Of a stretch of 20,000 bases of DNA, positions 1 through 18,734 are shown one piece after another; the first letter of the stretch is position 1; every line of letters begins with the position of its first letter. The notes below the pieces were generated by a model, which was not told the DNA's origin, searched no databases, and saw only the letters and a list, made by a program, of their open reading frames with translations. The DNA comes from an uncultured virus (IMG/VR IMGVR_UViG_3300027973_000046). Taxonomy: Duplodnaviria > Heunggongvirae > Uroviricota > Caudoviricetes. The stretch is from positions 58,929-78,928 of IMG/VR virus record IMGVR_UViG_3300027973_000046. One strand, 5' to 3'. The position numbers and the translations under genes are program-made.

Positions 1-357
1 CTGGTGCGAAGCCAAATACATTTCAAAAGACATCTGTGCTGCCATTTCAAAACTGTTTTTAATATAAAGTATTTTTTGGTTTAGCTTTTCATCATCTGTT
101 TTATTCAATACATTTTCTGTTAAAATATTTTTGTTGTTTCCATAAATAAGAGAAGCGTCATTGCTTGCTGTCCAGTCTTCCCACTTTGTAATTGCCTGGT
201 GGCTTCGTTCGTCTGCATCCACAAGGTGTATAAACTTTAATAGCTCTTCTGGGTAGCTTAAAACATTTTTAAAGTACCATATGTCTTTTTCAAGAATTTG
301 TACGTCAAACATGTGATACATGTCGTTTGGGTTAAATGTTTCTTTTGATATTTCCAT
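1..357 (-). CDS. Partial gene running off the window; probable further 2OG-Fe(II) oxygenase (N-terminal 119 aa)
   Basis: Not in the ORF track. ATG at 357-355 overlaps the TAA of the upstream gene (TAATG) and the frame stays open to position 1: MEISKETFNPNDMYHMFDVQILEKDIWYFKNVLSYPEELL...KWEDWTAS... The IWYFKNVL and W..W motifs match the N-termini of the neighbouring oxygenases (VDVYRNVL...NWDKWAS; MWVYRNVF). The catalytic motifs lie outside the window. Confidence 0.65.
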   Translation of the reverse strand, partial: MEISKETFNPNDMYHMFDVQILEKDIWYFKNVLSYPEELLKFIHLVDADERSHQAITKWEDWTASNDASLIYGNNKNILTENVLNKTDDEKLNQKILYIKNSFEMAAQMSFEMYLASHQ

Positions 358-1115
358 TAAATATTCTCCACTTCAGACGCTGGGATATTGTACCCATCGG
401 GGGTTAATCTTAAACCTTTTTCACGAACTTTTTTCCAGTCTTCTTGTTCGCCTTTTTGCATTGCCCTAACTTCTGCTAATTCTTTTGCCCATTCGTCACG
501 GACTTCTTGTGGGTAATCTGATTCTTCTCTGTCGTCCCAGAATGATCCAAGTGTATATCTTGGACTACCTTTTACTACTGTTACCTCGTGCATATTTTTA
601 TGCCCGCCGTGAAAAATTAAAAATGATCCAGCTTTTGGAACAATTTCCATTGGAAGGTTTCCGTGATCAGCGTCAAATTTTAATGTCCCTCCTTCAAAGT
701 CATCATTCAGGTATAAGAATCCAGCATATCTACTTCTAGTAAATGCTCCCATCTTACCTTTATTGTCACTGTTGTCGGAATGCTTTGGGGCAAATGCTCC
801 TGGCAACCATCTCTGCACGTGAAAACTTATTTTTGACATATCTGAAACATTTTTATTTGCAACTTCAGATGCAGCTACTTTAAATTTTTCTTGTATATCT
901 GTAAACCAAGTATTTGATAAATTAAATTTTTCTAGTATTGGCTCTCCGTCGTAAGGATACCTAGCAGAATAAGATTCATAAAAAGAAATTCCTTTCCAGT
1001 AATCCTCATCAGTTTCCTCTAATTCTTTTAAAACATTAATTACAGAAGTGCATTCCTCTGGTGTAATAAAACCTTCATATAAAAATATATCATCAGATAG
1101 CTTTATTAGATTCAT
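357..1115 (-). CDS. 2OG-Fe(II) oxygenase, prolyl 4-hydroxylase-like
   Basis: HxD motif (KHSD), YLNDDFEGGTL, distal His with Arg at +10 (HEVTVVKGSPRYTLGSFW). TAATG overlap at both ends. Confidence 0.9.
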   Translation of the reverse strand: MNLIKLSDDIFLYEGFITPEECTSVINVLKELEETDEDYWKGISFYESYSARYPYDGEPILEKFNLSNTWFTDIQEKFKVAASEVANKNVSDMSKISFHVQRWLPGAFAPKHSDNSDNKGKMGAFTRSRYAGFLYLNDDFEGGTLKFDADHGNLPMEIVPKAGSFLIFHGGHKNMHEVTVVKGSPRYTLGSFWDDREESDYPQEVRDEWAKELAEVRAMQKGEQEDWKKVREKGLRLTPDGYNIPASEVENI

Positions 1116-1933
1116 TACATTGCACCAGGTCCCGATTTGTCTCCAACCAAATCGTCATACTCTACTGGCTTTCCGTCTTGCAAATATCTCATATTTCTTG
1201 GATCTTCAAAATCAATTCTTTTTGATTCTTTTTTCATCCAGTTGTATGCTCCAAAAGTAAGTTGGTTTTGTAGCCATTCTTTTGAGCCAGCATATCTGTG
1301 CATTACAAAGTTTCTAACAAAAAACTTTTCTCCATTGTAAATTGTTTTAACTCCATGAAAATATGGTTCGTCTGAAGGAAACACTAAAATGTCTCCAGCC
1401 TGTGGCTTGTGATTTACTATCTTGCCATCAACAACAAACTCAATGTCTCCGCCGTCATAATCATCATTGATATACATTGTGCATGTAAGTAAGAATTTTG
1501 GTCCAGGCATTTCTCTTTGAGAAATAATATAGTCTGTGTGGTACTGCATTGTCATTTTGTTTTCTAAAACATCAACCTGGTCGTTATATTTTGAGAATGA
1601 GGATCCAGTAAAATACCAGTCTTCTGGTAGCTCAACTCCGTGTCTGGTGATGTAGTCATTTAAAACTAGGTCGTAGGCATCTTGAACCTGTTTAGCAAAA
1701 TCTTTTTCTTCGATAAACATTGGGTCCTGATTGTCTTGATTTATTTCAGCAGTATCTTTTATTTGTGTATATGTTCCAAAAGATGCCCACTTGTCCCAAT
1801 TTTTTAAATAATGCTTTCCTTCAGATGTTCTTTCTGATTTTTTCATTGTTTCGTATAAAGCTTTTGGGTCACGCAAAACATTTCTGTATACATCTACTTT
1901 TGGGTATAACTCTACATATTCTAAATTACTCAT
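1115..1933 (-). CDS. 2OG-Fe(II) oxygenase, prolyl 4-hydroxylase-like
   Basis: HTD, YINDDYDGGDIEF, KPQAGDILVFPS, HGVKTIYNGEK (Lys at +10). Start moved from 1969 to ATG 1933, which has an ATGA overlap with the upstream stop and a GGAG RBS. Confidence 0.9.
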   Translation of the reverse strand: MSNLEYVELYPKVDVYRNVLRDPKALYETMKKSERTSEGKHYLKNWDKWASFGTYTQIKDTAEINQDNQDPMFIEEKDFAKQVQDAYDLVLNDYITRHGVELPEDWYFTGSSFSKYNDQVDVLENKMTMQYHTDYIISQREMPGPKFLLTCTMYINDDYDGGDIEFVVDGKIVNHKPQAGDILVFPSDEPYFHGVKTIYNGEKFFVRNFVMHRYAGSKEWLQNQLTFGAYNWMKKESKRIDFEDPRNMRYLQDGKPVEYDDLVGDKSGPGAM

Positions 1934-2619
1934 GGTTGTTTGTCTCCAGTATGCTTTTGTATTGTCCAAAAAAACGGCGATGTAAATCTATTACCAGATT
2001 TTACTGGGCGGACTCCGTGTGTATAAAACCTATCTCCTGGGAAGAAATAAGCAGCTCCTGCTTTTGGCTTAAACTCTATTCCGTGTTGCGGAAAATAAAG
2101 TTCTCCGCCTTCGTAATCATCATTAAAATAAAATAATCCCGATAAATCGTACCAAGGAAAATCATTTGCTCTTCCCTGTTCAATTCCTGTGTGGAATTCT
2201 TTATCGGCATGTGGCTCTTGTCTTGCACCTATTGGCCACCTTACAATTGCTGGGCCAGTTTCTTTTGCATCAACATCAAAAAATTTGTCTACTTCAATTT
2301 TTAATCTTGCAATCATGCTATTTATTAACTCAAGAATTGTTGGGTCTGACGCCATGAGGGAATTGTATGTACATACCCTATCCTTCCAAATGTCCGCGTC
2401 GTATAAAACAAGACCATCTTCATCTTTATGGGTTTCTGTGTGGTCCCAAATTTTATTATTTAAAGCAAAATTAATAAGTCTTTCTCGCTCTTCTGTGGTT
2501 AAAAAATTCTCTAACTCTACGATGTTATCGGAAGAGTCTCCAAAAAAACCAGATGGAGTTATTGACTTGGGGGCGTTATGCTTATTCCAGTCGTTTGCTA
2601 TTGCTTGATTATTATTCAT
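1930..2619 (-). CDS. 2OG-Fe(II) oxygenase, prolyl 4-hydroxylase-like
   Basis: HAD, YFNDDYEGGELYF, KPKAGAAYFFPG, HGVRPVKSGNRFTSPFFW. Confidence 0.9.
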   Translation of the reverse strand: MNNNQAIANDWNKHNAPKSITPSGFFGDSSDNIVELENFLTTEERERLINFALNNKIWDHTETHKDEDGLVLYDADIWKDRVCTYNSLMASDPTILELINSMIARLKIEVDKFFDVDAKETGPAIVRWPIGARQEPHADKEFHTGIEQGRANDFPWYDLSGLFYFNDDYEGGELYFPQHGIEFKPKAGAAYFFPGDRFYTHGVRPVKSGNRFTSPFFWTIQKHTGDKQP

Positions 2620-2625
2620 ATTATC

Positions 2626-2634
2626 ATTATACCA
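2626..2634 (-). promoter_or_regulatory. Extended -10 promoter (TGGTATAAT), probably leaderless transcript
   Basis: Perfect TGnTATAAT in a 22-nt intergenic gap, 6 nt before ATG 2619, with no Shine-Dalgarno. Confidence 0.6.
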
Positions 2635-2641
2635 TTTCTAT

Positions 2642-3352
2642 TTATTTACTAATATCACGAACATTTAGTATTATTTTTTTGGCCTGGTGGGACCCAAGAG
2701 AATTTCCCTTATGATCAACAGCATTTTTATATAGGCCAGCCCAATCCCCATCTTTTTGTCTTCTAGTAACATACTCGGTATATTCTGGATCGTTCTGTAC
2801 TTCATCTAGGGGCAAATCCAATCCGTTGCTTATTATGGCAGTAGAGTGATTTATTTGTGCTAGATCTATTGGTAATACTGAAACTACTGGGGTGCCCGCT
2901 TTTATTGTTATTGGAACATCTTTTTTTGAAATTTTCCACGCTGGGCTTAGCTGACCTTTTAAAAACGAAGCATTTAATAAAACTTCTAAAACGTGAACCC
3001 CGTCTATAAACTGGTTTGGAACTCTTTTTACCCACAAGGTTAAATTCTCATCTGTTTTAAACATCAGCCCAGTGTTAAATGTAATTATATCATTTCTGCT
3101 ATCAATGTATAGGTACTCTTCTCCAGAAATTACTTCTATATATTTTTGCTGTGGTTTTGGATTTGAGTTGCAAATAAAAGTTATATCTTTTGGAAAAGAT
3201 ATTCCCCATCCAAGATTATTTACTAGGCCAAGCGGAAAACATCTGTATGCGTGTTTTTCTGGCGTCTCGTCCATCCAGTCTCTTTTAGTTTCCAATGTAG
3301 TTAAATTTCCTAGGCTATCTGAAAGCCTATATACATTAAATTCAATTGGCAT
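2642..3352 (-). CDS. DUF6065-like protein (paralogue 2)
   Basis: KRDWMDETPEKHAYRCFPLGLVNNLGW matches the R.WMD.T...AYRC.P...N..GW signature I associate with DUF6065; also IKAGTPVVSVLP. Clear paralogue of 3342-4046. Confidence 0.75.
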   Translation of the reverse strand: MPIEFNVYRLSDSLGNLTTLETKRDWMDETPEKHAYRCFPLGLVNNLGWGISFPKDITFICNSNPKPQQKYIEVISGEEYLYIDSRNDIITFNTGLMFKTDENLTLWVKRVPNQFIDGVHVLEVLLNASFLKGQLSPAWKISKKDVPITIKAGTPVVSVLPIDLAQINHSTAIISNGLDLPLDEVQNDPEYTEYVTRRQKDGDWAGLYKNAVDHKGNSLGSHQAKKIILNVRDISK

Positions 3353-4046
3353 CTGTACCGCCCTTTAATCTTATTGATTTTAGTTGATGCTCTCCTATTT
3401 TGTTTCCAAGATTATCAACGGCGTCTCTGTAAAAATTTGACCATTCCCCAGACTGATTAATTTCTTCAAGCGCTATTGAATATGCTGGAGTAAGGAATTC
3501 TGTTTTTGGTACTTCATGAATATCTCGCAATTCCATTTCTGAATTTTGTAATTCCATTAAATTCATTGGTATGACTGATATTATTGGGGTATTGGCTTTT
3601 ATTGTTATTTCTACATTTGGCCTTGTAATTCTCCAAGCACAGGGAAGGTCTCCCCTAAAAAACGATGTTGAAACAAGCGTTGTAAATGGAACAACACCAT
3701 CAATAAATTGATTTGGCACTGGCATTGAAAGCAAAGTTTCTTCTGGGTCTGTGATAAACATTACTCCAGTACGAAAGCTTACAGTAGCATTTGCACGATC
3801 TGGATAGGCGTATTTTTCACCTTTAAGAATTTTTACATGCTCTCCAGATGTATCAGAAATTCCGTCCCATATAAAAGTTATGTCTTCTGGGAAAGATATA
3901 CCCCAGCCAAGCTGATTAGTTAAGCTGACAGGAAAGCATTTATATGCATGGGCCTTCCAAGTATCATCCATCCAGTCTCTTTTAACAGACAATGGAGATA
4001 CGTTTGCAAGACCATCTCTAGTTTTGTATACCTTTATGTTTTTCAC
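3342..4046 (-). CDS. DUF6065-like protein (paralogue 1)
   Basis: KRDWMDDTWKAHAYKCFPVSLTNQLGWGISFPEDITFIWDG. The start is probably GTG 4046 (AAAGGG just upstream) rather than TTG 4052. Confidence 0.75.
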   Translation of the reverse strand: MKNIKVYKTRDGLANVSPLSVKRDWMDDTWKAHAYKCFPVSLTNQLGWGISFPEDITFIWDGISDTSGEHVKILKGEKYAYPDRANATVSFRTGVMFITDPEETLLSMPVPNQFIDGVVPFTTLVSTSFFRGDLPCAWRITRPNVEITIKANTPIISVIPMNLMELQNSEMELRDIHEVPKTEFLTPAYSIALEEINQSGEWSNFYRDAVDNLGNKIGEHQLKSIRLKGGTDAN

Positions 4047-4707
4047 GTTCAACCCTTTCGGCTCTCATTTGCATAAACTCTTGGTTGTGTGCGTGATCAT
4101 TATAATCAAGCATTGTTACAATTGAATATTTTCTACCAGAAGTTACTGGTGCGGCTAAGTGAGAGAAGAGATAGGTTGATGGGAATATGTATAGGTCTCC
4201 AGCCTGTGGCTTAATGCTTAAGTTTAATTTTGGAAAAACAAGTTCTCCGCCTTCATACTCATCGTTTGGGTAAGCAACTAAGGAAACTGTGGCGCTGTAA
4301 GAAAATCCATGGTCTGCATGCTCTTGAAAATGTTGTCCTGGACCATACTGAATAAAGTTCATTACTTCCCAGTAATTCATTCTAACGTTATATGCAGCAC
4401 AATAATCTTCAACCGCTGGTATCTGTGCATTGTAAGAGTCTTGCCAAATTGTAGCAAGTGTGGCTTGATCATCGTTTATTGGATTAGTAATTTCTCCAAT
4501 TTTAAAATCTCTGCAGTCTCTATAGCTTGGCTTCTTTTCCATGTATCCTACTGTGGCGTCCTGCCATGACAAGCCACTTGAATTATTTTCTAGCAAGACA
4601 CTTACTCTGTTCATGATGTCAAGCTCTGGGGTAAATACGTTGCGGTATACCCACATGCCTGGAAATAGCATTTCTTTTGATGACCAATTTTGACTAATGT
4701 TACTCAT
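4018..4707 (-). CDS. 2OG-Fe(II) oxygenase, prolyl 4-hydroxylase-like
   Basis: YGPGQHFQEHAD, YPNDEYEGGELVF, KPQAGDLYIFPS, HLAAPVTSGRKYSIV (Lys at +10). GGAG RBS; ATG directly follows the upstream TAA. Confidence 0.9.
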   Translation of the reverse strand: MSNISQNWSSKEMLFPGMWVYRNVFTPELDIMNRVSVLLENNSSGLSWQDATVGYMEKKPSYRDCRDFKIGEITNPINDDQATLATIWQDSYNAQIPAVEDYCAAYNVRMNYWEVMNFIQYGPGQHFQEHADHGFSYSATVSLVAYPNDEYEGGELVFPKLNLSIKPQAGDLYIFPSTYLFSHLAAPVTSGRKYSIVTMLDYNDHAHNQEFMQMRAERVEREKHKGIQN

Positions 4708-5304
4708 TTATTCTCCTAGTTTAGTATAGTTTAACATATCATCAGGTAGTATGTCAATAATTAAATGGGTTCTGTCTTCACTGCTTTTATTGCTAACGGC
4801 ATGCGGTAGCATATTATTTATTTCGTAGATACCAAACTCTTCCATATGAATGGTATTATTAAAGACCGTAAAGGTAACGTCTTTATTAGTAATGATTGGG
4901 ATGTGGACTCTCCTAGAAAAATTTAATAGGGGGCCTGCATCAACATGCTTATGAACTTCTGAATTTGCGTGTAGCTTAATTATCTCACATCTAATTACTT
5001 TTCCGCAATAGTGTTCTTCCAGATAATTAAAAAGTTTATCTAATTCTTCTTGGGCTTCTTTTGTTTTTAGAGAATTTTCATAAGTTGTAACAATCTCTAG
5101 GTCTGGGGTCCACTCGTATGGGGTTGAGCATATTCTAAACATTTCTGTATTTGTGTGAACAAGTCCATGATTTTGTCTTGTAGTATTTAAAAGCCACTCA
5201 TCAGAAAAATTAGAAACTTCTGCTTTTATCATTTTTATATCACAAAAGCCTAAATGTTTAATTGACCATTTAGTATCTTTTTTTATTCTTTGATACATAC
5301 TCAT
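4708..5304 (-). CDS. Aspartyl/asparaginyl beta-hydroxylase-family 2OG-Fe(II) oxygenase
   Basis: HKHVDAG, RRVHIPIITN and EINNMLPHAVSNKSSEDRTHLIID match the Asp_Arg_Hydrox/AspH-type pattern. The start may be ATG 5298, which is better spaced from GGAGGTG. Confidence 0.85.
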   Translation of the reverse strand: MSMYQRIKKDTKWSIKHLGFCDIKMIKAEVSNFSDEWLLNTTRQNHGLVHTNTEMFRICSTPYEWTPDLEIVTTYENSLKTKEAQEELDKLFNYLEEHYCGKVIRCEIIKLHANSEVHKHVDAGPLLNFSRRVHIPIITNKDVTFTVFNNTIHMEEFGIYEINNMLPHAVSNKSSEDRTHLIIDILPDDMLNYTKLGE

Positions 5305-5980
5305 ACACCTCCATGTCCATTTTATTTAAATCTTCTATTTTACTTATTTGAGATTTTGTTAAATTTAACTCTAATCCTGGGGATCTATTTGCTGGGTCTG
5401 ACCTGTGTTTAAACGACTCAAACCCAAAATTATTTTTTAATGCCTTATTTAAATCTTCTTTAAACAAGGATATATCCTCAAGTGTATAATAGTAAAAATT
5501 TTGTAAATTGTCAATTGCTTTTTGAGGCCCGCCCTCTATTCCTTCCAAGTACCACCCGCTATCAATAGTGTGCTGAAAATAATTAAAGTGTTTATTAAAC
5601 TGATCAATGTTTGTTTTTCCAATTAAAAATTTAGTCTGAAGGTTTGACTGCATTTCGGACTGTTCTCCATATAGCCAGCTCTCAAGCTTTTCTTCAGATT
5701 CTTTGCCCGCCCTTATTAAACCAGTTGTATATTTAAAATAGCTTACAAATCTATCTACTGGATTTCTTATTATTGTAAATACTTCTGGGTTGTCCATATA
5801 ATCTAAGGGCATGGTTCCAAAATGTCCGCCAACAAATAAACTTTTATTTATAACAGATGGTTCTATTATTGTTCTATTTGAAACAAAATGTGAAACCCCA
5901 CCAGTAATTAGGTGGGGCAGCACATGATTCTTTATATGTATTCCAGCAGTGCGTGGGATATGTAGGTGGTAAATAGACAT
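5270..5980 (-). CDS. PAPS-dependent sulfotransferase (Sulfotransfer_2-like)
   Basis: 5'-PSB loop HLHIPRTAG (canonical HIPKTAG) and 3'-PB motif FTIIRNPVDRFVSYF. C-terminal N..D..VY motif. Confidence 0.85.
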   Translation of the reverse strand: MSIYHLHIPRTAGIHIKNHVLPHLITGGVSHFVSNRTIIEPSVINKSLFVGGHFGTMPLDYMDNPEVFTIIRNPVDRFVSYFKYTTGLIRAGKESEEKLESWLYGEQSEMQSNLQTKFLIGKTNIDQFNKHFNYFQHTIDSGWYLEGIEGGPQKAIDNLQNFYYYTLEDISLFKEDLNKALKNNFGFESFKHRSDPANRSPGLELNLTKSQISKIEDLNKMDMEVYEYVSKNKKRY

Positions 5981-7465
5981 TTATGCAAAATATTTTCTAT
6001 TATGTACTACTAATCCTCCCGCTATTAAAATGTCATTAGGAGCTGCATCGAACTCATAAACATTTCTGTTTTCATCGATAATTTGAATTTCATTTACTAG
6101 AATAGAAGAGAAAGATCCATCTTCATTTCTAGAAATTACTTCGTCTCCTGGCTCTAAAATTCCAGTTACTCCAAAGAAATATGTGTTATTTCTTTTCACA
6201 AGAATTGTTTGTTCTAGAGAGAATCTGTGAGCAGGGTTACCGTTAATACATAGTGTAACTTCTTTAACAGAAGGAATTATGTTTGTTATAACAGTTGGAA
6301 CAATTGCTAGATTGTTTAGTTCTGAGCTGGACCATGTGTAAGGGTCTACTGAGAATTCGCTATCTAGTCCGTCCCAAGTTACACCCCAAACATTATCTCC
6401 AATTTGAACATCTGAAGCTTTTTTGTATTCTATTGTATTGTTTTCTCCGATTATTGTAATCAGTGTATCTTGATCAATACAGAACCCTGGAGGTGAGAAG
6501 AACCCTGGAGGTGAGAAGAATCCTGGAGGTGCAAAGAACCCTGGAGGTGAGAAGAACCCTGGAGGTGAGAAGAACCCTGGAGGTGAGAAGAACCCTGGAG
6601 GGCTAAAGAAGTTTGGTGGCGCAAAGAAGCCTGGTGGGCTAAAGAACGACGGTGGGCTAAAGAACGCTGGTGGCGAGAAGAAGCCTGGTGGGCTAAAGAA
6701 CGCTGGTGGCGAGAAGAATGCTGGTGGCGAGAAGAATGAAGGTGGCGAGAAGAAGCCTGGTGGGCTAAAGAACGCTGGTGGCGAGAAGAACGCTGGTGGC
6801 GAGAAGAATGAAGGTGGCGAGAAGAAGCCTGGTGGGCTAAAGAACGCTGGTGGGAAGAACGGCGGGAAGAACGGGGCTAGAGTTGTTACAGAATTTGAAC
6901 TTCCAGAGTAAGCAGAATTTAAATTTCCGTTTATAGCAAGTACTTGATATGTCTGTGAAGTATTTGCTGTTTCTGGTACAGTGTATGAAGTTCCAGTTGT
7001 TGAATAAGTTGGTCCATCAGAAGACTTAAGTATGTAACCAGTTACAGATGACCCTCCATTATTTTCTGGTGCTGCCCATGTAACATAGTCTTGATTTGTT
7101 TGCGCTGTTGCTACTGGAGCCGCTGGTGTTGAGGTAACTGTTGTTACTGTAACTTGATTAGATGCGGCAGAAGGAAGGGATGTTCCGTTATCATTACTTG
7201 CTGTTACTGTTATGGTTGGCGTAGCGCCTACACCAAAACCTGTAATTGTTAATGGTGAAGATGCACCTGTTACAGTTTGTCCCGTGCTGGCTGTTGCTGT
7301 AAATGATGTTGCAGCATTTCTGTTGTCTGGGGTAAATGTTATTGTAACTGCGCCGTTGTTGTACGGACGATTAGTTCCAACATTTGTTGCTGTACCAATA
7401 ATTGGTGCATATGGTGCCAGGAAGTCATTAGCTCCCTGGCTCATTCTACCTGCTTGTTTTGACAT
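5981..7465 (-). CDS. FN3-FN3 / (FFSPPx)20 repeat / C-terminal Hint domain protein
   Basis: Two FN3-like domains (VTITFTP...TITVTASNDNGTS; VTWAAPENNGGSSVTGY...YQVLAINGN), a Pro/Phe repeat at aa 198-328, and a Hint domain from C329 (CIDQDTLI...DVQIGDNV...LEPGDEV...VYEF...GGLVVHN489). AAGGAG RBS. Confidence 0.9.
   Translation of the reverse strand: MSKQAGRMSQGANDFLAPYAPIIGTATNVGTNRPYNNGAVTITFTPDNRNAATSFTATASTGQTVTGASSPLTITGFGVGATPTITVTASNDNGTSLPSAASNQVTVTTVTSTPAAPVATAQTNQDYVTWAAPENNGGSSVTGYILKSSDGPTYSTTGTSYTVPETANTSQTYQVLAINGNLNSAYSGSSNSVTTLAPFFPPFFPPAFFSPPGFFSPPSFFSPPAFFSPPAFFSPPGFFSPPSFFSPPAFFSPPAFFSPPGFFSPPAFFSPPSFFSPPGFFAPPNFFSPPGFFSPPGFFSPPGFFSPPGFFAPPGFFSPPGFFSPPGFCIDQDTLITIIGENNTIEYKKASDVQIGDNVWGVTWDGLDSEFSVDPYTWSSSELNNLAIVPTVITNIIPSVKEVTLCINGNPAHRFSLEQTILVKRNNTYFFGVTGILEPGDEVISRNEDGSFSSILVNEIQIIDENRNVYEFDAAPNDILIAGGLVVHNRKYFA
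5999..6481 (-). other. Hint (Hedgehog/intein-like) autoprocessing domain, 161 aa, no endonuclease
   Basis: N-terminal Cys (codon 6481-6479), D.QIGD.V motif, L.PGDEV motif, block F VYEF and terminal VVHN, followed only by RKYFA-stop. Confidence 0.88.
6482..6874 (-). repeat. Coding 18-bp tandem repeat: PFFPPFFPPA + 20 x FF(S/A)PP(G/A/S/N) + F
   Basis: Counted directly from the translation: aa 208-327 are 20 hexapeptides. The DNA units vary at synonymous positions. Confidence 0.97.
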
Positions 7466-15922: not shown

Positions 15923-18274
15923 CTAGTATTGTACGTAAATATCTCCAGCAACCATTCCAGTAGTAGGGAGTGTGCCAGTATTATTATAGAATGTTTTTGC
16001 TCCAACAGGAATTGTTACTATTGATCCTAAAGAAACTAGCTGTCCATTAATTCCAACATAATTATTTGCAAGCATGACATTTGTAACTGTTGCCGTATCG
16101 GCCAAAGTAACTGCCGTTCCAGCAATTTTTGTTTTATCTATTGCGGCAGAAGAATTTATATCGCCATTAAGAATAGAACCATCTGCAATTTTTGCTGATG
16201 TTATAGAGTTATCCGCTATTGTTGTAGATAATCCAGTTACTGTAGCACCAGAAAAATCTACTATCCCAGTAAATACTGGGGAGGCCTTGGTTGCATAGCT
16301 TGTTAAGTTTAATGTTGCCCATGAAGCAGATGTTCCGTCTGTAGTTAAATATTTACCAGAATTGTTTAATTGAGCTGGTAGGGCTGTTATTCCAATTACA
16401 GTTGCTCCCGAGAAATCTACTGTTCCAGTAAATACTGGTGATATCTTTGTTGAATAGGTAGCTGCTGCAGTAGACGTTGAAATTTTTGTATCAAGGGCTG
16501 CTTGAGTTGCAGTAGATATAGGCTTTGATGCATCTGTAGTATTTTCTGCATTTCCCAATCCAACCATTGCTTTTGTAATTCCATTTACCGTTCCGCTAAA
16601 TGTTGGTGAAACAATTGGTGCATATGTTGATGCTGCAGTTGAAGAAGAAAGTTTAGTTCCAACTAATGTAGTTAAAGAAGATGCTGCTGTTTGATCAGAT
16701 GCAATGTAGTCTGAAATTTCTTTAAGTGTATCAAATGTTGCTGGCGCTCCATTTACAACATTTGTTATTGCAGCTGTAATGTCTGAAGTTCTAGCAATAT
16801 CTGAATTTAAGACAGTTGAGTCTATTTTTCCAGTTGCAATACTAATTTTTGGATAAAGTAAATTTGCATCAGCTTCTGTTAAATATGATTCAAGTGTGTT
16901 ATTTAAAGAAGTTGGTGTTGTAAAAGTAGAATTAACATATGTTTTTGTCGGAAAGGTGTTATTTGCATATGTTAAAAGATCTTCTTGAGCTTGATTTACA
17001 TTTACATAAACATCTGCAAATTTTTGATTTGTTGCAGAGATAACTCTTTCTGGTGTAAAATAAAGATTTGTTGTACCCTCTGCTACTGCGTCTGTTGTTC
17101 CAGTAAATGTTGATCCGCCAGAACCTGCTGCGCCTGTGTCGCCCCGTGGAATTGTAAAATTAAATATTGCTGCTTGGGATGTTCCAGAATTTGTTATAGC
17201 TACAGATGAACCTGCTAAACCAGTGGTAACAGAACCAACTGTTATTGTTGCTGCTGTTCCAGCGACTCCAGGTGTTCCATCTGCGCCAGCTGAACCAGTG
17301 TCACCTTTTAATCCCTGTGGACCTTGTGGACCTGCTGCACCAGCGGCACCCGCAGGACCAACATCGCCTCTAGGACCCTGTAAGCCTGTAGCTCCGATAC
17401 CAATTGGACCAGATTCTCCTGTGTCACCTTTTAATCCCTGTGGACCTGCTGCACCAGCGGCACCCGCAGGACCCGCAGGACCCGCAGGACCTGTGGCACC
17501 TGTGTCACCTTTTAATCCCTGTGGACCTGCTGCACCAGCGGCACCCGCAGGACCCGCAGGACCTGTGGCACCTGTAGCGCCAGGAGTTCCTGTACCAGCA
17601 GTAATTCCAGAAACTGCTGCATTGATTGCAGTATTTCTATTTGTAATTTCAGTTGATATGGCAGTATTTATTGCTGTGTTTCTACTAGAAACTTCTGTCG
17701 CAATTTTAGTATCTGTATAAGAATTGGCTGTGACTACTGCTGCTGCTGTAGCAATTGTATCTTTTGTATCTGATGCCGCTGCCGCTGCAATGATAGCCTC
17801 TGATTTAGCTGCTGCTGCTTTGTTAGTTGCATCATTTGATGCTGTGCTAATTGCTTCTGTTTTTGCAGCAGCGATTGCTGTATTTCTATTTGAAGTCTCT
17901 GCTGCAATTGCGCTAACTATAGAAGCAGAAACTGCATCGATTGCTCTTTGATTTGTAAAATATTTATTTGTAGATCCTTCTGTTATAGAGTTAGAAGTTA
18001 ATTGAGCGATTGCAGCATTTAAATCAACTCCTGCTGAAATAGAATCTGGTAGTTGGGAAGTAGGTATTTTACCAGCTGAGTTAAGTGTAGCGATTCCGTT
18101 TGCTTCTCCAACTTTTAATGCATAGGAAGTTGTGGCATTCCATCTTGAGCCGTTGCCAACTTTAAATTTAAGAGTATCTGTTTCAATACCAAGTTCACCT
18201 GGCAATAGTATGGGATTGTTTAAAACCCAATTTGCTGCTGTATCTCTTCTAAGCTGTATTCTTAATGATGCCAT
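15923..18274 (-). CDS. Collagen-like tail fibre protein with Mtd_N-like N-terminus
   Basis: [38 protein letters not shown], a Gly-X-Y tract, [45 protein letters not shown]-terminal GDIYVQY. The start is probably ATG 18274, after GGAGGT. Confidence 0.87.
17258..17590 (-). repeat. Collagen-like Gly-X-Y tract (36 triplets, one GI interruption)
   Basis: Read directly from the translation. [13 protein letters not shown](GPQ)GLKGDT unit occurs three times with near-identical DNA. Confidence 0.95.
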
Positions 18275-18275
18275 T

Positions 18276-18734
18276 TTATGAACCTCCTGCATCAACAATT
18301 ATACCATCGTTGTCTGCAGAACTTCCTCCTTCTAGGATTTCGTCTTGTACTTCTATAACACTGCCTTCTGGGTTTCCGCCATCAAGCAACGTTTGGTTTT
18401 CAAATGTTCCGCCTTGGTTTGATGTTGAAGGATATTGTCCATCGTATCCAATTACAAGCGGTAATACTAGATTGGGAGAATCTGAAGTATTTGTTTCCTT
18501 AAATGTAATCTTATTTTGAACATCAATTGTATGAACATTTCCATCAAATGAATGTGTATGCATATAAAATGGTGTTGGGTCTGTGCTCGGCGGGGTAAGC
18601 TCTACCCAAACCATACCATTGTATATTCTTAAATTCTTACTTACTACATTAAAGTATATATCTCCAACAGTGGCTATGTCGGGGTTCTCCATAGAAGTAA
18701 GAAGATTAAGTGCAACCTTCATTTGTCTGGACAT
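18276..18734 (-). CDS. Virion structural protein (acidic DGG-motif C-terminus)
   Basis: P...VGDIYFN...LRIYNG..W motif similar to the N-terminus of 18739-19938. The tail has repeated LDGG/LEGG/DAGG. Confidence 0.65.

What the first reader, a model, noticed from the sequence alone, without database searches (positions are those of the whole stretch)
5981..6484. Non-canonical C-terminal Hint domain fused directly to the last repeat (…PPGF|C…HN|RKYFA)
Seen: Cys1 follows the final repeat with no linker. The domain ends in His-Asn but the +1 residue is Arg, not Cys/Ser/Thr, and only 5 residues follow. By eye the block-B TxxH motif aligns to SLEQ (His to Gln) and block-F VYD is VYE. Established: canonical splicing needs a +1 nucleophile; Hedgehog and bacterial intein-like Hints instead cleave or transfer the N-terminal part to an external nucleophile via a thioester. 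Inference: this Hint could activate the repeat's C-terminus (Phe-thioester) for ligation to a small molecule, another virion protein or macrocyclisation. Alternatively it may act as a triggered cleavage switch or a recognition module for the tailoring enzymes. The missing block-B His suggests slow or conditional N-cleavage.
Basis: partly seen in the sequence, partly recalled or inferred. Interest (0 to 1): 0.8.

Follow-up and report, generated by a model that had tools for sequence, protein, structure and literature searches.

The report
Self-processing Hint cap on phage fibre
A virion-module protein of an uncultured tailed phage ends in a real but unusual intein/Hedgehog-type (Hint) domain that most likely cuts itself off the sticky Phe/Pro repeat it caps; it belongs to a large phage family that has not been described and whose chemistry has not been tested.

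Summary
The last 166 residues of the 494-aa ORF (5981-7465, minus strand) have a genuine Hint fold. The AF2 model has pLDDT 92.7. VIA-align gives Z about 17 to Hedgehog Hh-C, Tetrahymena BIL2, inteins and the C. thermocellum BIL. hhalign gives 98.8% probability to bacterial tandem BIL units.

- **Anatomy:** Cys1 directly follows the last FFxPPx repeat. The domain ends in His-Asn, +1 is Arg, and five residues follow. Block-B TxxH reads SLEQ.
- **Classification:** It is not an intein. Its logic is that of type-A bacterial intein-like (BIL) domains.
- **Family:** It belongs to a large uncultured-phage family (619 representatives) that no Pfam or NCBIfam model captures at threshold. Cys1 is present in 76/76 and block-B Ser/Thr in 118/118. 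Block-B His is present in only 40/118 (Gln 52, Glu 24). His-Asn is present in 94/118, and Lys at +1/+2 in 89/94 of those.
- **Likely role:** Homologues without any Hint stop right after the repeat. The Hint is therefore most likely a self-removing maturation cap, possibly re-attaching the Lys tail.
- **Linked gene:** A sulfotransferase gene abuts the stop codon here. Such a gene follows 28/33 HNxK-type Hint genes and 0/48 others.

No chemistry has been tested. The scan met this family before on other DNA (e1-5997621 and others). I rate it a new variant of a known kind.

The parts
5981..7465 (-). Whole ORF, 494 aa: leader + two FN3 domains + FFxPPx repeat + Hint + 5-residue tail
7406..7465 (-). 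Residues 1-20. N-terminal leader with a conserved motif (consensus MSKxxGRxSQxANDFLxP). Low model confidence. Possibly the virion-attachment peptide (inference).
   Evidence: consensus; pLDDT 54-74
6878..7405 (-). Residues 21-196: tandem FN3 domains
   Evidence: pLDDT 90; titin/LAR FN3 tandems, E about 1e-9; BFVD 'Fibronectin type III [uncultured Caudovirales phage]', E 1e-20
6482..6877 (-). Residues 197-328. Phe/Pro-rich hexapeptide repeat (FFxPPx) with an 18-nt period, ending at Phe328 (the -1 residue).
   Evidence: (TRF 6481-6853, period 18, 20.7 copies)
5999..6481 (-). Residues 329-489: Hint domain, Cys329 to Asn489
6479..6481 (-). Cys329 (Cys1), the predicted N-S acyl-shift nucleophile. 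Invariant in 76/76 aligned relatives.
6311..6373 (-). Residues 365-385. A family-specific loop of about 20 residues (consensus DELxDExxxDPYTWSS), absent from bacterial BIL units. Glu and Pro are invariant in A1.
6209..6220 (-). Block B, Ser416-Leu-Glu-Gln419 (= TxxH). Thr is replaced by Ser and His by Gln.
6032..6055 (-). Block F positions. Glu471 is the equivalent of the intein F:4 Asp. Asp478 is the equivalent of the block-F His (PHTF in BILs).
5999..6004 (-). His488-Asn489, the terminal His-Asn (94/118 relatives)
5984..5998 (-). C-terminal tail Arg490-Lys491-Tyr-Phe-Ala494. Lys491 (+2) is invariant in A1, and Lys is at +1/+2 in 89/94 HN-type relatives.
5270..5980 (-). Sulfotransferase-like gene. 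Its ATG directly abuts the Hint ORF's TAA. It tracks HNxK-type Hint genes.
   Evidence: PF03567, 1.8e-7
4708..5304 (-). Asp/Asn beta-hydroxylase-like cupin gene. It usually accompanies the sulfotransferase.
   Evidence: PF05118, 1.3e-11

Best explanation
The domain is a type-A-BIL-like Hint that acts once, in cis, as a self-removing cap on the C-terminus of a phage virion-module protein (leader, two FN3 domains, then about 130 residues of uncharged Phe/Pro repeat).

**Proposed steps (all inferred from Hint chemistry; none shown here).**
1. Cys329 attacks the Phe328 carbonyl (N-S acyl shift), giving a Phe328 thioester.
2. Because there is no +1 Cys/Ser/Thr, no branched ester can form.
3. The thioester is resolved by hydrolysis, or by aminolysis with the tail, while Asn489 cyclises and cuts the C-terminal junction.
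4. The mature protein ends at or just after the repeat, either as ...PPGF-COOH or as ...PPGF-RKYFA.

The Hint would keep the aggregation-prone repeat capped until folding, tailoring or assembly. This is analogous in role, not in fold, to the self-cleaving C-terminal chaperone domains of phage fibres. Gln in place of the block-B His is a family trait and may slow or gate step 1.
For: **Fold and homology.** AF2 pLDDT is 92.7. VIA-align gives Z 17.2 / rmsd 2.1 to 1at0, Z 17.0 to 6tmm and Z 16.4 / rmsd 1.9 to 2lwy. Foldseek finds 50 hits at E<=1e-3, and all listed rows are Hint proteins. hhalign to tandem BIL units gives 98.8% probability. In the profile search of PDB, 11 of 12 hits are inteins or BILs. 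13 of 14 family members touch Intein_splicing at E<=1.

**Selection on catalytic positions.** I analysed 118 single-domain representatives, chosen from the 160 proteins then held. The other 42 were multi-domain or partial and were dropped.
- Cys1 is present in 76/76 aligned sequences.
- Block-B Ser/Thr is present in 118/118.
- His-Asn is present in 94/118.

**BIL logic.** +1 is Ser/Thr in only 7/94 and never Cys. The tail is 1-5 residues in 80/94. Passages of PMC4031507 define type-A BILs: C-terminal His-Asn, no +1 nucleophile, cleavage products dominant, and splicing by aminolysis after Asn cyclisation.

**The Hint is dispensable for the mature protein.** 98 shorter homologues of the N-terminal part were found, many of 220-270 aa on contigs of up to 121 kb. 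They stop a few residues after the repeat. In fetched loci, complete Hint-less ORFs occupy the same fibre-module position.

**The repeat needs a cap.** The 40 residues before Cys1 in 72 representatives are 24% Phe and 23% Pro, with 0.2% Lys, 0.4% Asp and 0.3% Glu.

**Structural-module context.** The gene lies between tail-fibre-like genes and a hydroxylase cluster, upstream of portal, protease and the major capsid protein.
Against: - No cleavage has been observed. Everything about the chemistry is inference.
- The block-B His, usually essential for the N-S shift, is Gln here. The F:4 Asp equivalent is Glu and the block-F His equivalent is Asp, so the domain could be slow or inactive.
- Simple cleavage explains neither the conservation of His-Asn nor the conservation of Lys (89/94; Arg in only 3) in the tail.
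- Degenerate relatives (Ser1, with C-terminal FD/YD/HD in place of HN) persist with the fold. This hints that the domain may also have a non-catalytic role.
- The bulky -1 Phe could compensate for the missing His (abstract of PMC6333167). Family-wide, however, -1 size does not track the block-B residue: in the Gln class, 16 of 36 have Gly/Ala/Ser at -1.
Confidence: 0.55

Rival explanations
1. The Hint is a built-in, ATP-free ligase. The Phe328 thioester is captured by a lysine epsilon-amine, either the conserved tail Lys491 in cis or a Lys of another virion protein or another copy in trans. Capture in cis would give a branched, isopeptide-linked C-terminus once Asn489 cyclises. Capture in trans would crosslink or polymerise the fibre.
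For: - Lys, not merely a basic residue, is kept at +1 or +2 in 89/94 HN-type relatives, with Arg in only 3.
- HN, Asp478 and Lys co-occur in 77/118. Sequences that have lost HN tend to lose both of the others.
- The repeat itself has almost no Lys (0.2%).
- Tetrahymena BIL2, which joins its N-extein to a Lys epsilon-amine by isopeptide (section 2.4 of PMC8616854), is among the top structural matches: Foldseek 1.7e-7, Z 17.0.
- Conserved His-Asn implies that C-junction chemistry matters.
- Among Hint-less homologues, 20 of 35 have Lys or Arg in the last six residues (Arg in 15, Lys in 5), against a background of about 0.5%. A Lys-bearing tail after splicing would therefore mimic them.
Against: - +1 Lys is shared with bacterial tandem BIL units (VHNKGG in 18/22), where it may serve cleavage catalysis instead.
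- No coordinates were available to measure the Lys-to-Cys1 distance.
- There is no mass evidence.
- Hint-less homologues function without any such ligation.
Confidence: 0.2
2. The domain is catalytically silent and stays on the protein. It would be a globular C-terminal knob, either a receptor-binding or assembly tip, or a docking platform that recruits the adjacent sulfotransferase and hydroxylase to the repeat or tail.
For: - The block-B His, the F:4 Asp and the block-F His are all replaced.
- Degenerate Hint derivatives without Cys1 or HN persist in the family.
- There is a family-specific conserved loop of about 20 residues.
- The sulfotransferase gene abuts the stop codon. Such a gene follows 28/33 HNxK-type Hint genes and 0/48 others. 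The pairing recurs on the N-extein tree: 7 changes on the quick tree, at least 2 forced by well-supported branches.
Against: - Cys1 (76/76), block-B Ser/Thr (118/118) and His-Asn (94/118) are under strong constraint, which a mere knob would not need.
- Hint-less homologues exist in the same gene position.
- The linkage could reflect cassette inheritance and not physical binding.
Confidence: 0.17
3. RiPP-like or Hedgehog-like use. The thioester is handed to a small-molecule nucleophile, or to the protein's own N-terminus (macrocyclisation), or repeat peptides are released as modified products.
For: A repeat array sits beside many tailoring enzymes: four complete 2OG-Fe(II) oxygenases, two DUF6065 proteins, a cupin hydroxylase and a sulfotransferase. 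Hedgehog provides a precedent for transfer to a small molecule (passages of PMC7664689).
Against: - There is no adduct-recognition region after the Hint, only five residues.
- A 328-residue N-extein with two folded FN3 domains, in a fibre module, argues for a structural protein.
- No protease, cyclase or exporter was found among the window's ORFs.
Confidence: 0.05

Closest known systems
Type-A bacterial intein-like (BIL) domains, e.g. C. thermocellum BIL (PDB 2lwy)
   Same: Hint fold (Z 16.4, rmsd 1.9 over 130 residues). N-terminal Cys. C-terminal His-Asn. No +1 nucleophile. The expected outcome is cleavage at both junctions with optional aminolytic ligation (passages of PMC4031507).
   Different: - The block-B His is Gln here.
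- The block-F His equivalent is Asp.
- There is an extra loop of about 20 residues.
- It always sits at the extreme C-terminus with a 1-5 residue Lys tail.
- The hosts are phage FN3/PASTA-repeat proteins, not bacterial secreted proteins.
- It is not captured by any Pfam Hint model at threshold.
Bacterial tandem BIL arrays with a Tim44-like tail (P0101, P0139, P0141, P0158, P0160)
   Same: They are the closest sequence relatives outside the phage family: hhalign 98.8%, E 5.4e-17. They share the VHN-K junction (18/22 units).
   Different: They keep TxxHP and PHTF, occur as 3-5 tandem units joined by KGG(G)C linkers, and are strongly recognised by PT-HINT and Hint.
Tetrahymena BUBL BIL2 (PDB 6y75, 6tmm)
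   Same: A top structural match. It is a Hint without canonical splicing that transfers its N-extein to a lysine epsilon-amine (PMC8616854, section 2.4). This is a precedent for a role of the conserved tail Lys.
   Different: It is flanked by ubiquitin-like domains, and its block-B His (H69) is present and Zn-gated. No such chemistry has been shown here.
Hedgehog C-terminal autoprocessing domain (PDB 1at0)
   Same: The best VIA match (Z 17.2). It is a C-terminal Hint that uses only the N-S shift to release and modify the N-terminal part (passages of PMC7664689).
   Different: Hedgehog has a sterol-recognition region after the Hint (recalled), and this protein has five residues. Hedgehog keeps the block-B His.
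Self-cleaving C-terminal intramolecular chaperone domains of phage tailspikes and fibres (Peptidase S74; recalled)
   Same: The proposed role is the same: a C-terminal module that helps maturation of a fibre and then cuts itself off.
   Different: The fold and chemistry are unrelated. No S74 hit was found in Pfam, and the fold here is Hint.

Membership tests
HINT (Hedgehog/intein) superfamily | Hint beta-fold | tested here: met
   pLDDT 92.7; 32 Hint chains at Z>=5, top Z 17.2
HINT (Hedgehog/intein) superfamily | N-terminal Cys/Ser nucleophile at the first residue | tested here: met
   Cys329; 76/76 in relatives
HINT (Hedgehog/intein) superfamily | Block-B Thr-x-x-His | tested here: not met
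   The motif is Ser-Leu-Glu-Gln. The register is fixed by hhalign. The family column is Gln52/His40/Glu24.
Canonical class-1 intein | +1 Cys/Ser/Thr on a real C-extein | tested here: not met
   +1 is Arg490 and only five residues follow. +1 is Ser/Thr in 7/94 relatives.
Canonical class-1 intein | Inserted in a conserved site of a host protein that exists without it as one continuous protein | tested here: not met
   It lies at the extreme C-terminus. Hint-less homologues simply end after the repeat.
Type-A BIL domain | C-terminal His-Asn with no +1 nucleophile, and an N-terminal Cys | tested here: met
   definition from passages of PMC4031507
Type-A BIL domain | Sequence membership in the published BIL-A motif set (Amitai 2003) | not testable with these tools
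   That paper and its motifs were not available. Dassa 2004 is not held. Homology to tandem BIL units is shown, but whether those are type A as originally defined is not known.
Type-A BIL domain | Autocatalytic N- and C-terminal cleavage | not testable with these tools
   Needs expression and mass spectrometry.
Pfam Intein_splicing (PF14890), PT-HINT (PF07591), Hint_2 (PF13403) | Score at or above the gathering cutoff | tested here: not met
   The window domain scores 13.2 bits against 35.8. None of 52 family members reaches any Hint cutoff; the best is 25.5 bits. NCBIfam gives nothing.
Hedgehog Hog domain | Adduct (sterol)-recognition region C-terminal to the Hint | tested here: not met
   Five residues follow Asn489.
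BUBL-type BIL | Flanking ubiquitin-like domains; isopeptide product | tested here: not met
   The N-extein is FN3 domains plus repeat, and there is no C-extein domain. Whether an isopeptide product forms could not be tested.

The most novel reading that the evidence does not exclude
The family is a phage-encoded, ATP-independent protein-ligation device. The Hint converts the C-terminal Phe of the repeat into a thioester. The strictly conserved tail lysine, or a lysine on another virion protein or another copy, captures it as an isopeptide, with Asn cyclisation then discarding the Hint. This is BUBL-like chemistry used to build or anchor a virion appendage. The co-inherited sulfotransferase and cupin hydroxylase would act on that junction or tail.
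Probability: 0.18. Interest if true: 0.85.

Novelty: new variant of a known kind. Interest (0 to 1): 0.6.

Why it matters
Hint domains are the chemistry behind inteins, Hedgehog lipidation and most protein-ligation tools. This is a large natural family (619 representatives at E<=1e-3; 57 + 67 viral loci fetched) that standard annotation misses.

- Two-thirds of its members do without the 'essential' block-B histidine.
- It carries a near-invariant post-Asn lysine.
- It sits on phage surface proteins next to orphan 2OG oxygenases and a sulfotransferase.

It offers three things. First, a natural test of how the N-S acyl shift works without the histidine. Second, a possible new lysine-directed ligation chemistry. 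Third, a concrete substrate hypothesis for the many unexplained oxygenase genes of aquatic phages.

Tried and rejected
- **Complex prediction.** Complex prediction of sulfotransferase (A3) with Hint (A1) gave no verdict: runs 0.21, 0.39, 0.12, median 0.21 against the mark of 0.32. I do not use it either way.
- **Bulky -1 residue compensating for the missing block-B His** (idea from the abstract of PMC6333167). There is no family-wide correlation. In the Gln class, 9 of 36 have an aromatic residue at -1 and 16 of 36 have Gly/Ala/Ser. In the His class the figures are 7 and 8 of 22.
- **Cultured or annotated relatives.** megablast and tblastn against 50,697 phage records found nothing. The genome-contig scan with the single domain found no relative.
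- I used single proteins instead.
No viral locus was found for P0155.
- **Downstream genes of remote family members.** Most are 170-250 aa proteins with no Pfam family, with weak DUF6065 or 2OG hits in three and class-II RNR beyond them. This gave no further clue.
- **Literature.** Searches found no paper describing this family.
- **A residue-level distance check (Lys491 to Cys329)** was not possible, because model coordinates are not exposed.
Full report
**What is there.** The window lies in a 78,928-base linear virus record, estimated 73% complete. In that record, 69 of 74 ORFs are on the minus strand. PHROGs hits show a siphovirus-like phage: a 3,680-aa tape measure, portal, head protease, major capsid protein, large terminase, DNA polymerase and a UvsX-like recombinase.

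In the direction of transcription, the window holds tail-fibre-like genes first. These carry Mtd_N, collagen and Flg_new domains and hit PHROGs tail-fibre families. Next comes the 494-aa ORF at 5981-7465. It is followed without any gap by:
- a sulfotransferase-family gene (PF03567);
- an Asp/Asn beta-hydroxylase-like cupin (PF05118);
- four complete 2OG-Fe(II) oxygenases (PF13640);
- two DUF6065 genes.

The portal and head genes follow beyond the window.

The ORF translates to ...FFSPPGF|CIDQDT...GGLVVHN|RKYFA*. The DNA confirms TGT for Cys329 right after the last repeat codon. It also confirms CAT AAT AGA AAA TAT TTT GCA TAA, followed directly by the ATG of the sulfotransferase gene. The repeat is an 18-nt unit in 20.7 copies at 6481-6853.

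Single-sequence searches almost miss the domain:
- the whole protein has no Pfam family;
- the domain alone gets Intein_splicing at E 0.076, 13.2 bits, against a cutoff of 35.8;
- phmmer against PDB finds nothing;
- NCBIfam finds nothing.

**It is a Hint domain.** A search found twelve metagenomic homologues at 44-60% identity, all carrying a precomputed FN3 family. An alignment of 14 domains (A1) shows invariant Cys1, His-Asn and a Lys two residues after Asn. Evidence built on that alignment:
- AlphaFold2 gives pLDDT 92.7 and pTM 0.88.
- Foldseek against PDB gives 50 hits at E<=1e-3, and every listed row is an intein, a BIL or Hedgehog Hh-C. The best is 2lqm at 9.9e-8. Tetrahymena BIL2 (6y75) scores 1.7e-7, 2lwy 7.2e-6 and 1at0 1.2e-5.
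- An independent all-against-all VIA-align run over 48,161 chains gives 1at0 at Z 17.2 (rmsd 2.1, 135 aligned), 6tmm at Z 17.0, 4o1r at Z 16.9 and 2lwy at Z 16.4 (rmsd 1.9, 130 aligned). Ranks 1-32 are all Hint-fold chains, and the next chain has Z 2.6.
- The A1 profile against PDB sequences finds 12 chains at E<=10, of which 11 are inteins or BILs, aligned over blocks F and G ending at His-Asn.
- 13 of 14 members touch PF14890 at E<=1.
- The protein atlas places the domain among viral (Uroviricota) clusters that are either unnamed or Hint families, score 0.93.

**The block registers.** I cut 22 canonical units from five bacterial tandem-BIL proteins and one further multi-Hint protein, all returned by the representative search. 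I then ran hhalign against A1: probability 98.8%, E 5.4e-17, 131 columns.
- It pairs Ser416 with the block-B Thr, Gln419 with the block-B His and Thr420 with the Pro of TxxHP.
- It pairs Asp478 with the His of the block-F 'PHTF'.
- The RecA alignment pairs Glu471 with the block-F Asp.

The phage domains also carry an extra loop of about 20 residues (residues 365-385) with invariant Glu and Pro.

**A large, unannotated phage family.** The A1 profile finds 619 representative proteins at E<=1e-3, 166 at <=1e-10 and 44 at <=1e-30. The domain is nearly always at the very C-terminus.

From the 160 proteins then held, I kept 118 single-domain sequences with near-full profile coverage. The 42 dropped were multi-domain or partial. 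In those 118:
- Cys1 is present in all 76 that reach the N-terminus.
- The block-B first position is Ser 91 / Thr 27.
- The block-B His position is Gln 52 / His 40 / Glu 24 / Thr 1 / Gly 1.
- The next residue is Pro in 44.
- His-Asn is present in 94.

Among those 94:
- Lys is at +1 (38, of which 30 end the protein there) or at +2 (51). Arg is at +2 in 3, and 2 are otherwise.
- +1 is Ser/Thr in 7 and never Cys.
- The tail is 1-5 residues in 80.

HN, Asp478 and Lys co-occur in 77 of 118, while forms lacking HN tend to lack both of the others.

Pfam on 52 full-length members finds FN3 in 25 and PASTA in 10. No member reaches the gathering score of any Hint family, the best being 25.5 bits. Three tandem-BIL controls hit PT-HINT and Hint strongly.

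The 40 residues before Cys1 in 72 representatives are 24% Phe, 23% Pro, 11% Ser and 8.5% Gly, and are almost uncharged.

**The N-extein.** Residues 1-196, modelled with 17 homologues (A2), give pLDDT 90: a low-confidence leader of about 20 residues and two FN3 domains. The model matches titin and LAR FN3 tandems. It also matches 'Fibronectin type III [uncultured Caudovirales phage]' entries in BFVD, the best being A0A6J5NYB8 at 49% identity, E 1e-20. Public relatives therefore exist but are labelled only by their FN3 part.

**The Hint is optional.**
- A search with residues 1-196 among shorter proteins gave 98 hits at E<=1e-5. Many are 220-270 aa and lie on contigs of up to 121 kb. They have the same leader, FN3 pair and aromatic repeat, and stop a few residues later.
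- Of the 63 hits of 215 aa or more, 35 passed my aromatic-content filter. Of those 35, 20 have Lys or Arg in the last six residues (Arg in 15, Lys in 5), against a background of about 0.5%. Eight have Cys-rich tails. Some of these may be truncated at contig ends.
- In fetched loci I also saw complete Hint-less ORFs. I also saw degenerate Hints with Ser in place of Cys1, a retained block-B 'S..SH', and FD/YD/HD in place of His-Asn.

**Context and a linkage.** In 37 of 57 viral loci found with the Hint profile, the order is fibre gene, Hint protein, sulfotransferase, generally followed by the cupin hydroxylase and the 2OG/DUF6065 genes. This holds down to about 40% Hint identity.

I then pooled all unique complete ORFs from 120 loci that have at least 1,500 bases downstream. 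A sulfotransferase homologue lies directly downstream of:
- 28 of 33 'HNxK' Hint genes;
- 0 of 6 'HNK-stop' genes;
- 0 of 24 degenerate-Hint genes;
- 0 of 18 genes with no detectable Hint (this class includes some long proteins with sub-threshold Hint remnants).

Further points on the linkage:
- The linked class includes both FFxPPx (20) and FGFxP (7) repeat types. FFxPPx proteins without a canonical Hint are followed directly by the 2OG/DUF6065 genes.
- Linked tails are xKx[F/Y](A). Most of the unlinked HNxK tails are three residues long.
- On a quick maximum-likelihood tree of the N-terminal FN3 region (73 rows), the sulfotransferase label needs 7 changes. At least 2 are forced by well-supported branches. 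The shuffled mean is 22.1, and 0 of 500 shuffles were as low. The careful tree did not finish, and recombination inside genes is likely, so this is suggestive only.
- The sulfotransferase keeps an HIPRTxG loop and invariant Arg72, Arg77 and Ser80. From memory, I read these as the PAPS-binding motifs.

**How it most likely works.** By fold, homology and conserved residues this is a BIL-type Hint. Passages of PMC4031507 and PMC7664689 state that BILs lack the +1 nucleophile and mainly cleave. They also state that type-A BILs keep His-Asn and can ligate their flanks, by aminolysis of the thioester after Asn cyclisation.

I therefore favour (0.55) a self-removing cap: an N-S shift at Phe328-Cys329, resolution of the thioester, and Asn489 cyclisation. 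This would leave a mature FN3-repeat protein like the Hint-less homologues. What simple cleavage does not explain is the strict conservation of His-Asn and of Lys (not Arg) in a tail that can be a single residue.

Section 2.4 of PMC8616854 reports that Tetrahymena BIL2, a top structural match, forms an isopeptide between its N-extein and a lysine. That makes a lysine-capture route a serious rival (0.2). A retained, non-catalytic knob or docking domain (0.17) and small-molecule or RiPP-like routes (0.05) are less likely, for the reasons given in their entries.

The abstract of PMC6333167 shows that a bulky -1 residue can replace the block-B His in one intein. Phe328 fits that idea here, but the family as a whole shows no such correlation.

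**Novelty.** Six full-text searches found no description of this family. I saw only listings and abstracts, apart from the passages and sections named above.

The scan's own notebook, which I consulted only after my reading was formed, shows that other agents reached the same reading on related phage DNA. Those findings are e1-5997621, e1-6006308, e1-6061897, e1-6042978 and e1-6042990. They are unchecked AI notes and not independent evidence.

I rate this a new variant of a known kind (a BIL-type Hint), with an open and testable question about its chemistry.

Noticed in passing
window 5270-5980 (-) and 4708-5304 (-); loci L007-L132: A sulfotransferase-like gene, usually with an Asp/Asn-hydroxylase-like cupin, occurs only directly downstream of Hint genes with an HNxK tail: 28/33, against 0/48 for HNK-stop, degenerate or absent Hint. 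Here its ATG abuts the Hint ORF's stop codon. The function of the pairing is unknown.
   Followed up: partly
proteins P0161-P0258; loci L069, L083, L102, L105, L117, L118, L130, L132: Hint-less homologues (leader + two FN3 + aromatic repeat, then stop) are common, some with Cys-rich tails such as ...CPDCTKGCPC. Other homologues carry degenerate Hints with Ser1 and FD/YD/HD in place of His-Asn.
   Followed up: partly
window 6481-6853: The repeat is an 18-nt tandem array of 20.7 copies. Relatives differ widely in copy number and unit (FFxPPx, FFPP, FGVFGFSP, FTPYS, PSFPSF), so the tract looks hypervariable.
   Followed up: partly
window 357-4707 and 1-357 (-): There are four complete 2OG-Fe(II) oxygenase paralogues (PF13640) and two tandem DUF6065 paralogues. 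No paper mentions DUF6065. Collagen-like Gly-X-Y tracts in the 791-aa fibre (15923-18298) are further candidate hydroxylase substrates.
   Followed up: no
G000:C1:35359-46401 (outside the window): A 3,680-aa tape-measure protein, which implies an unusually long tail. The record also carries a Nol-like carbamoyltransferase and a further 2OG oxygenase next to the terminase.
   Followed up: no
loci L043, L047, L059, L062: Some related phages carry two repeat-Hint genes in the same fibre module.
   Followed up: no
loci L040, L069, L091, L123: In remote relatives the repeat protein is followed by a 240-250 aa protein with no Pfam family (weak DUF6065 in one), and then by a class-II ribonucleotide reductase.
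   Followed up: no
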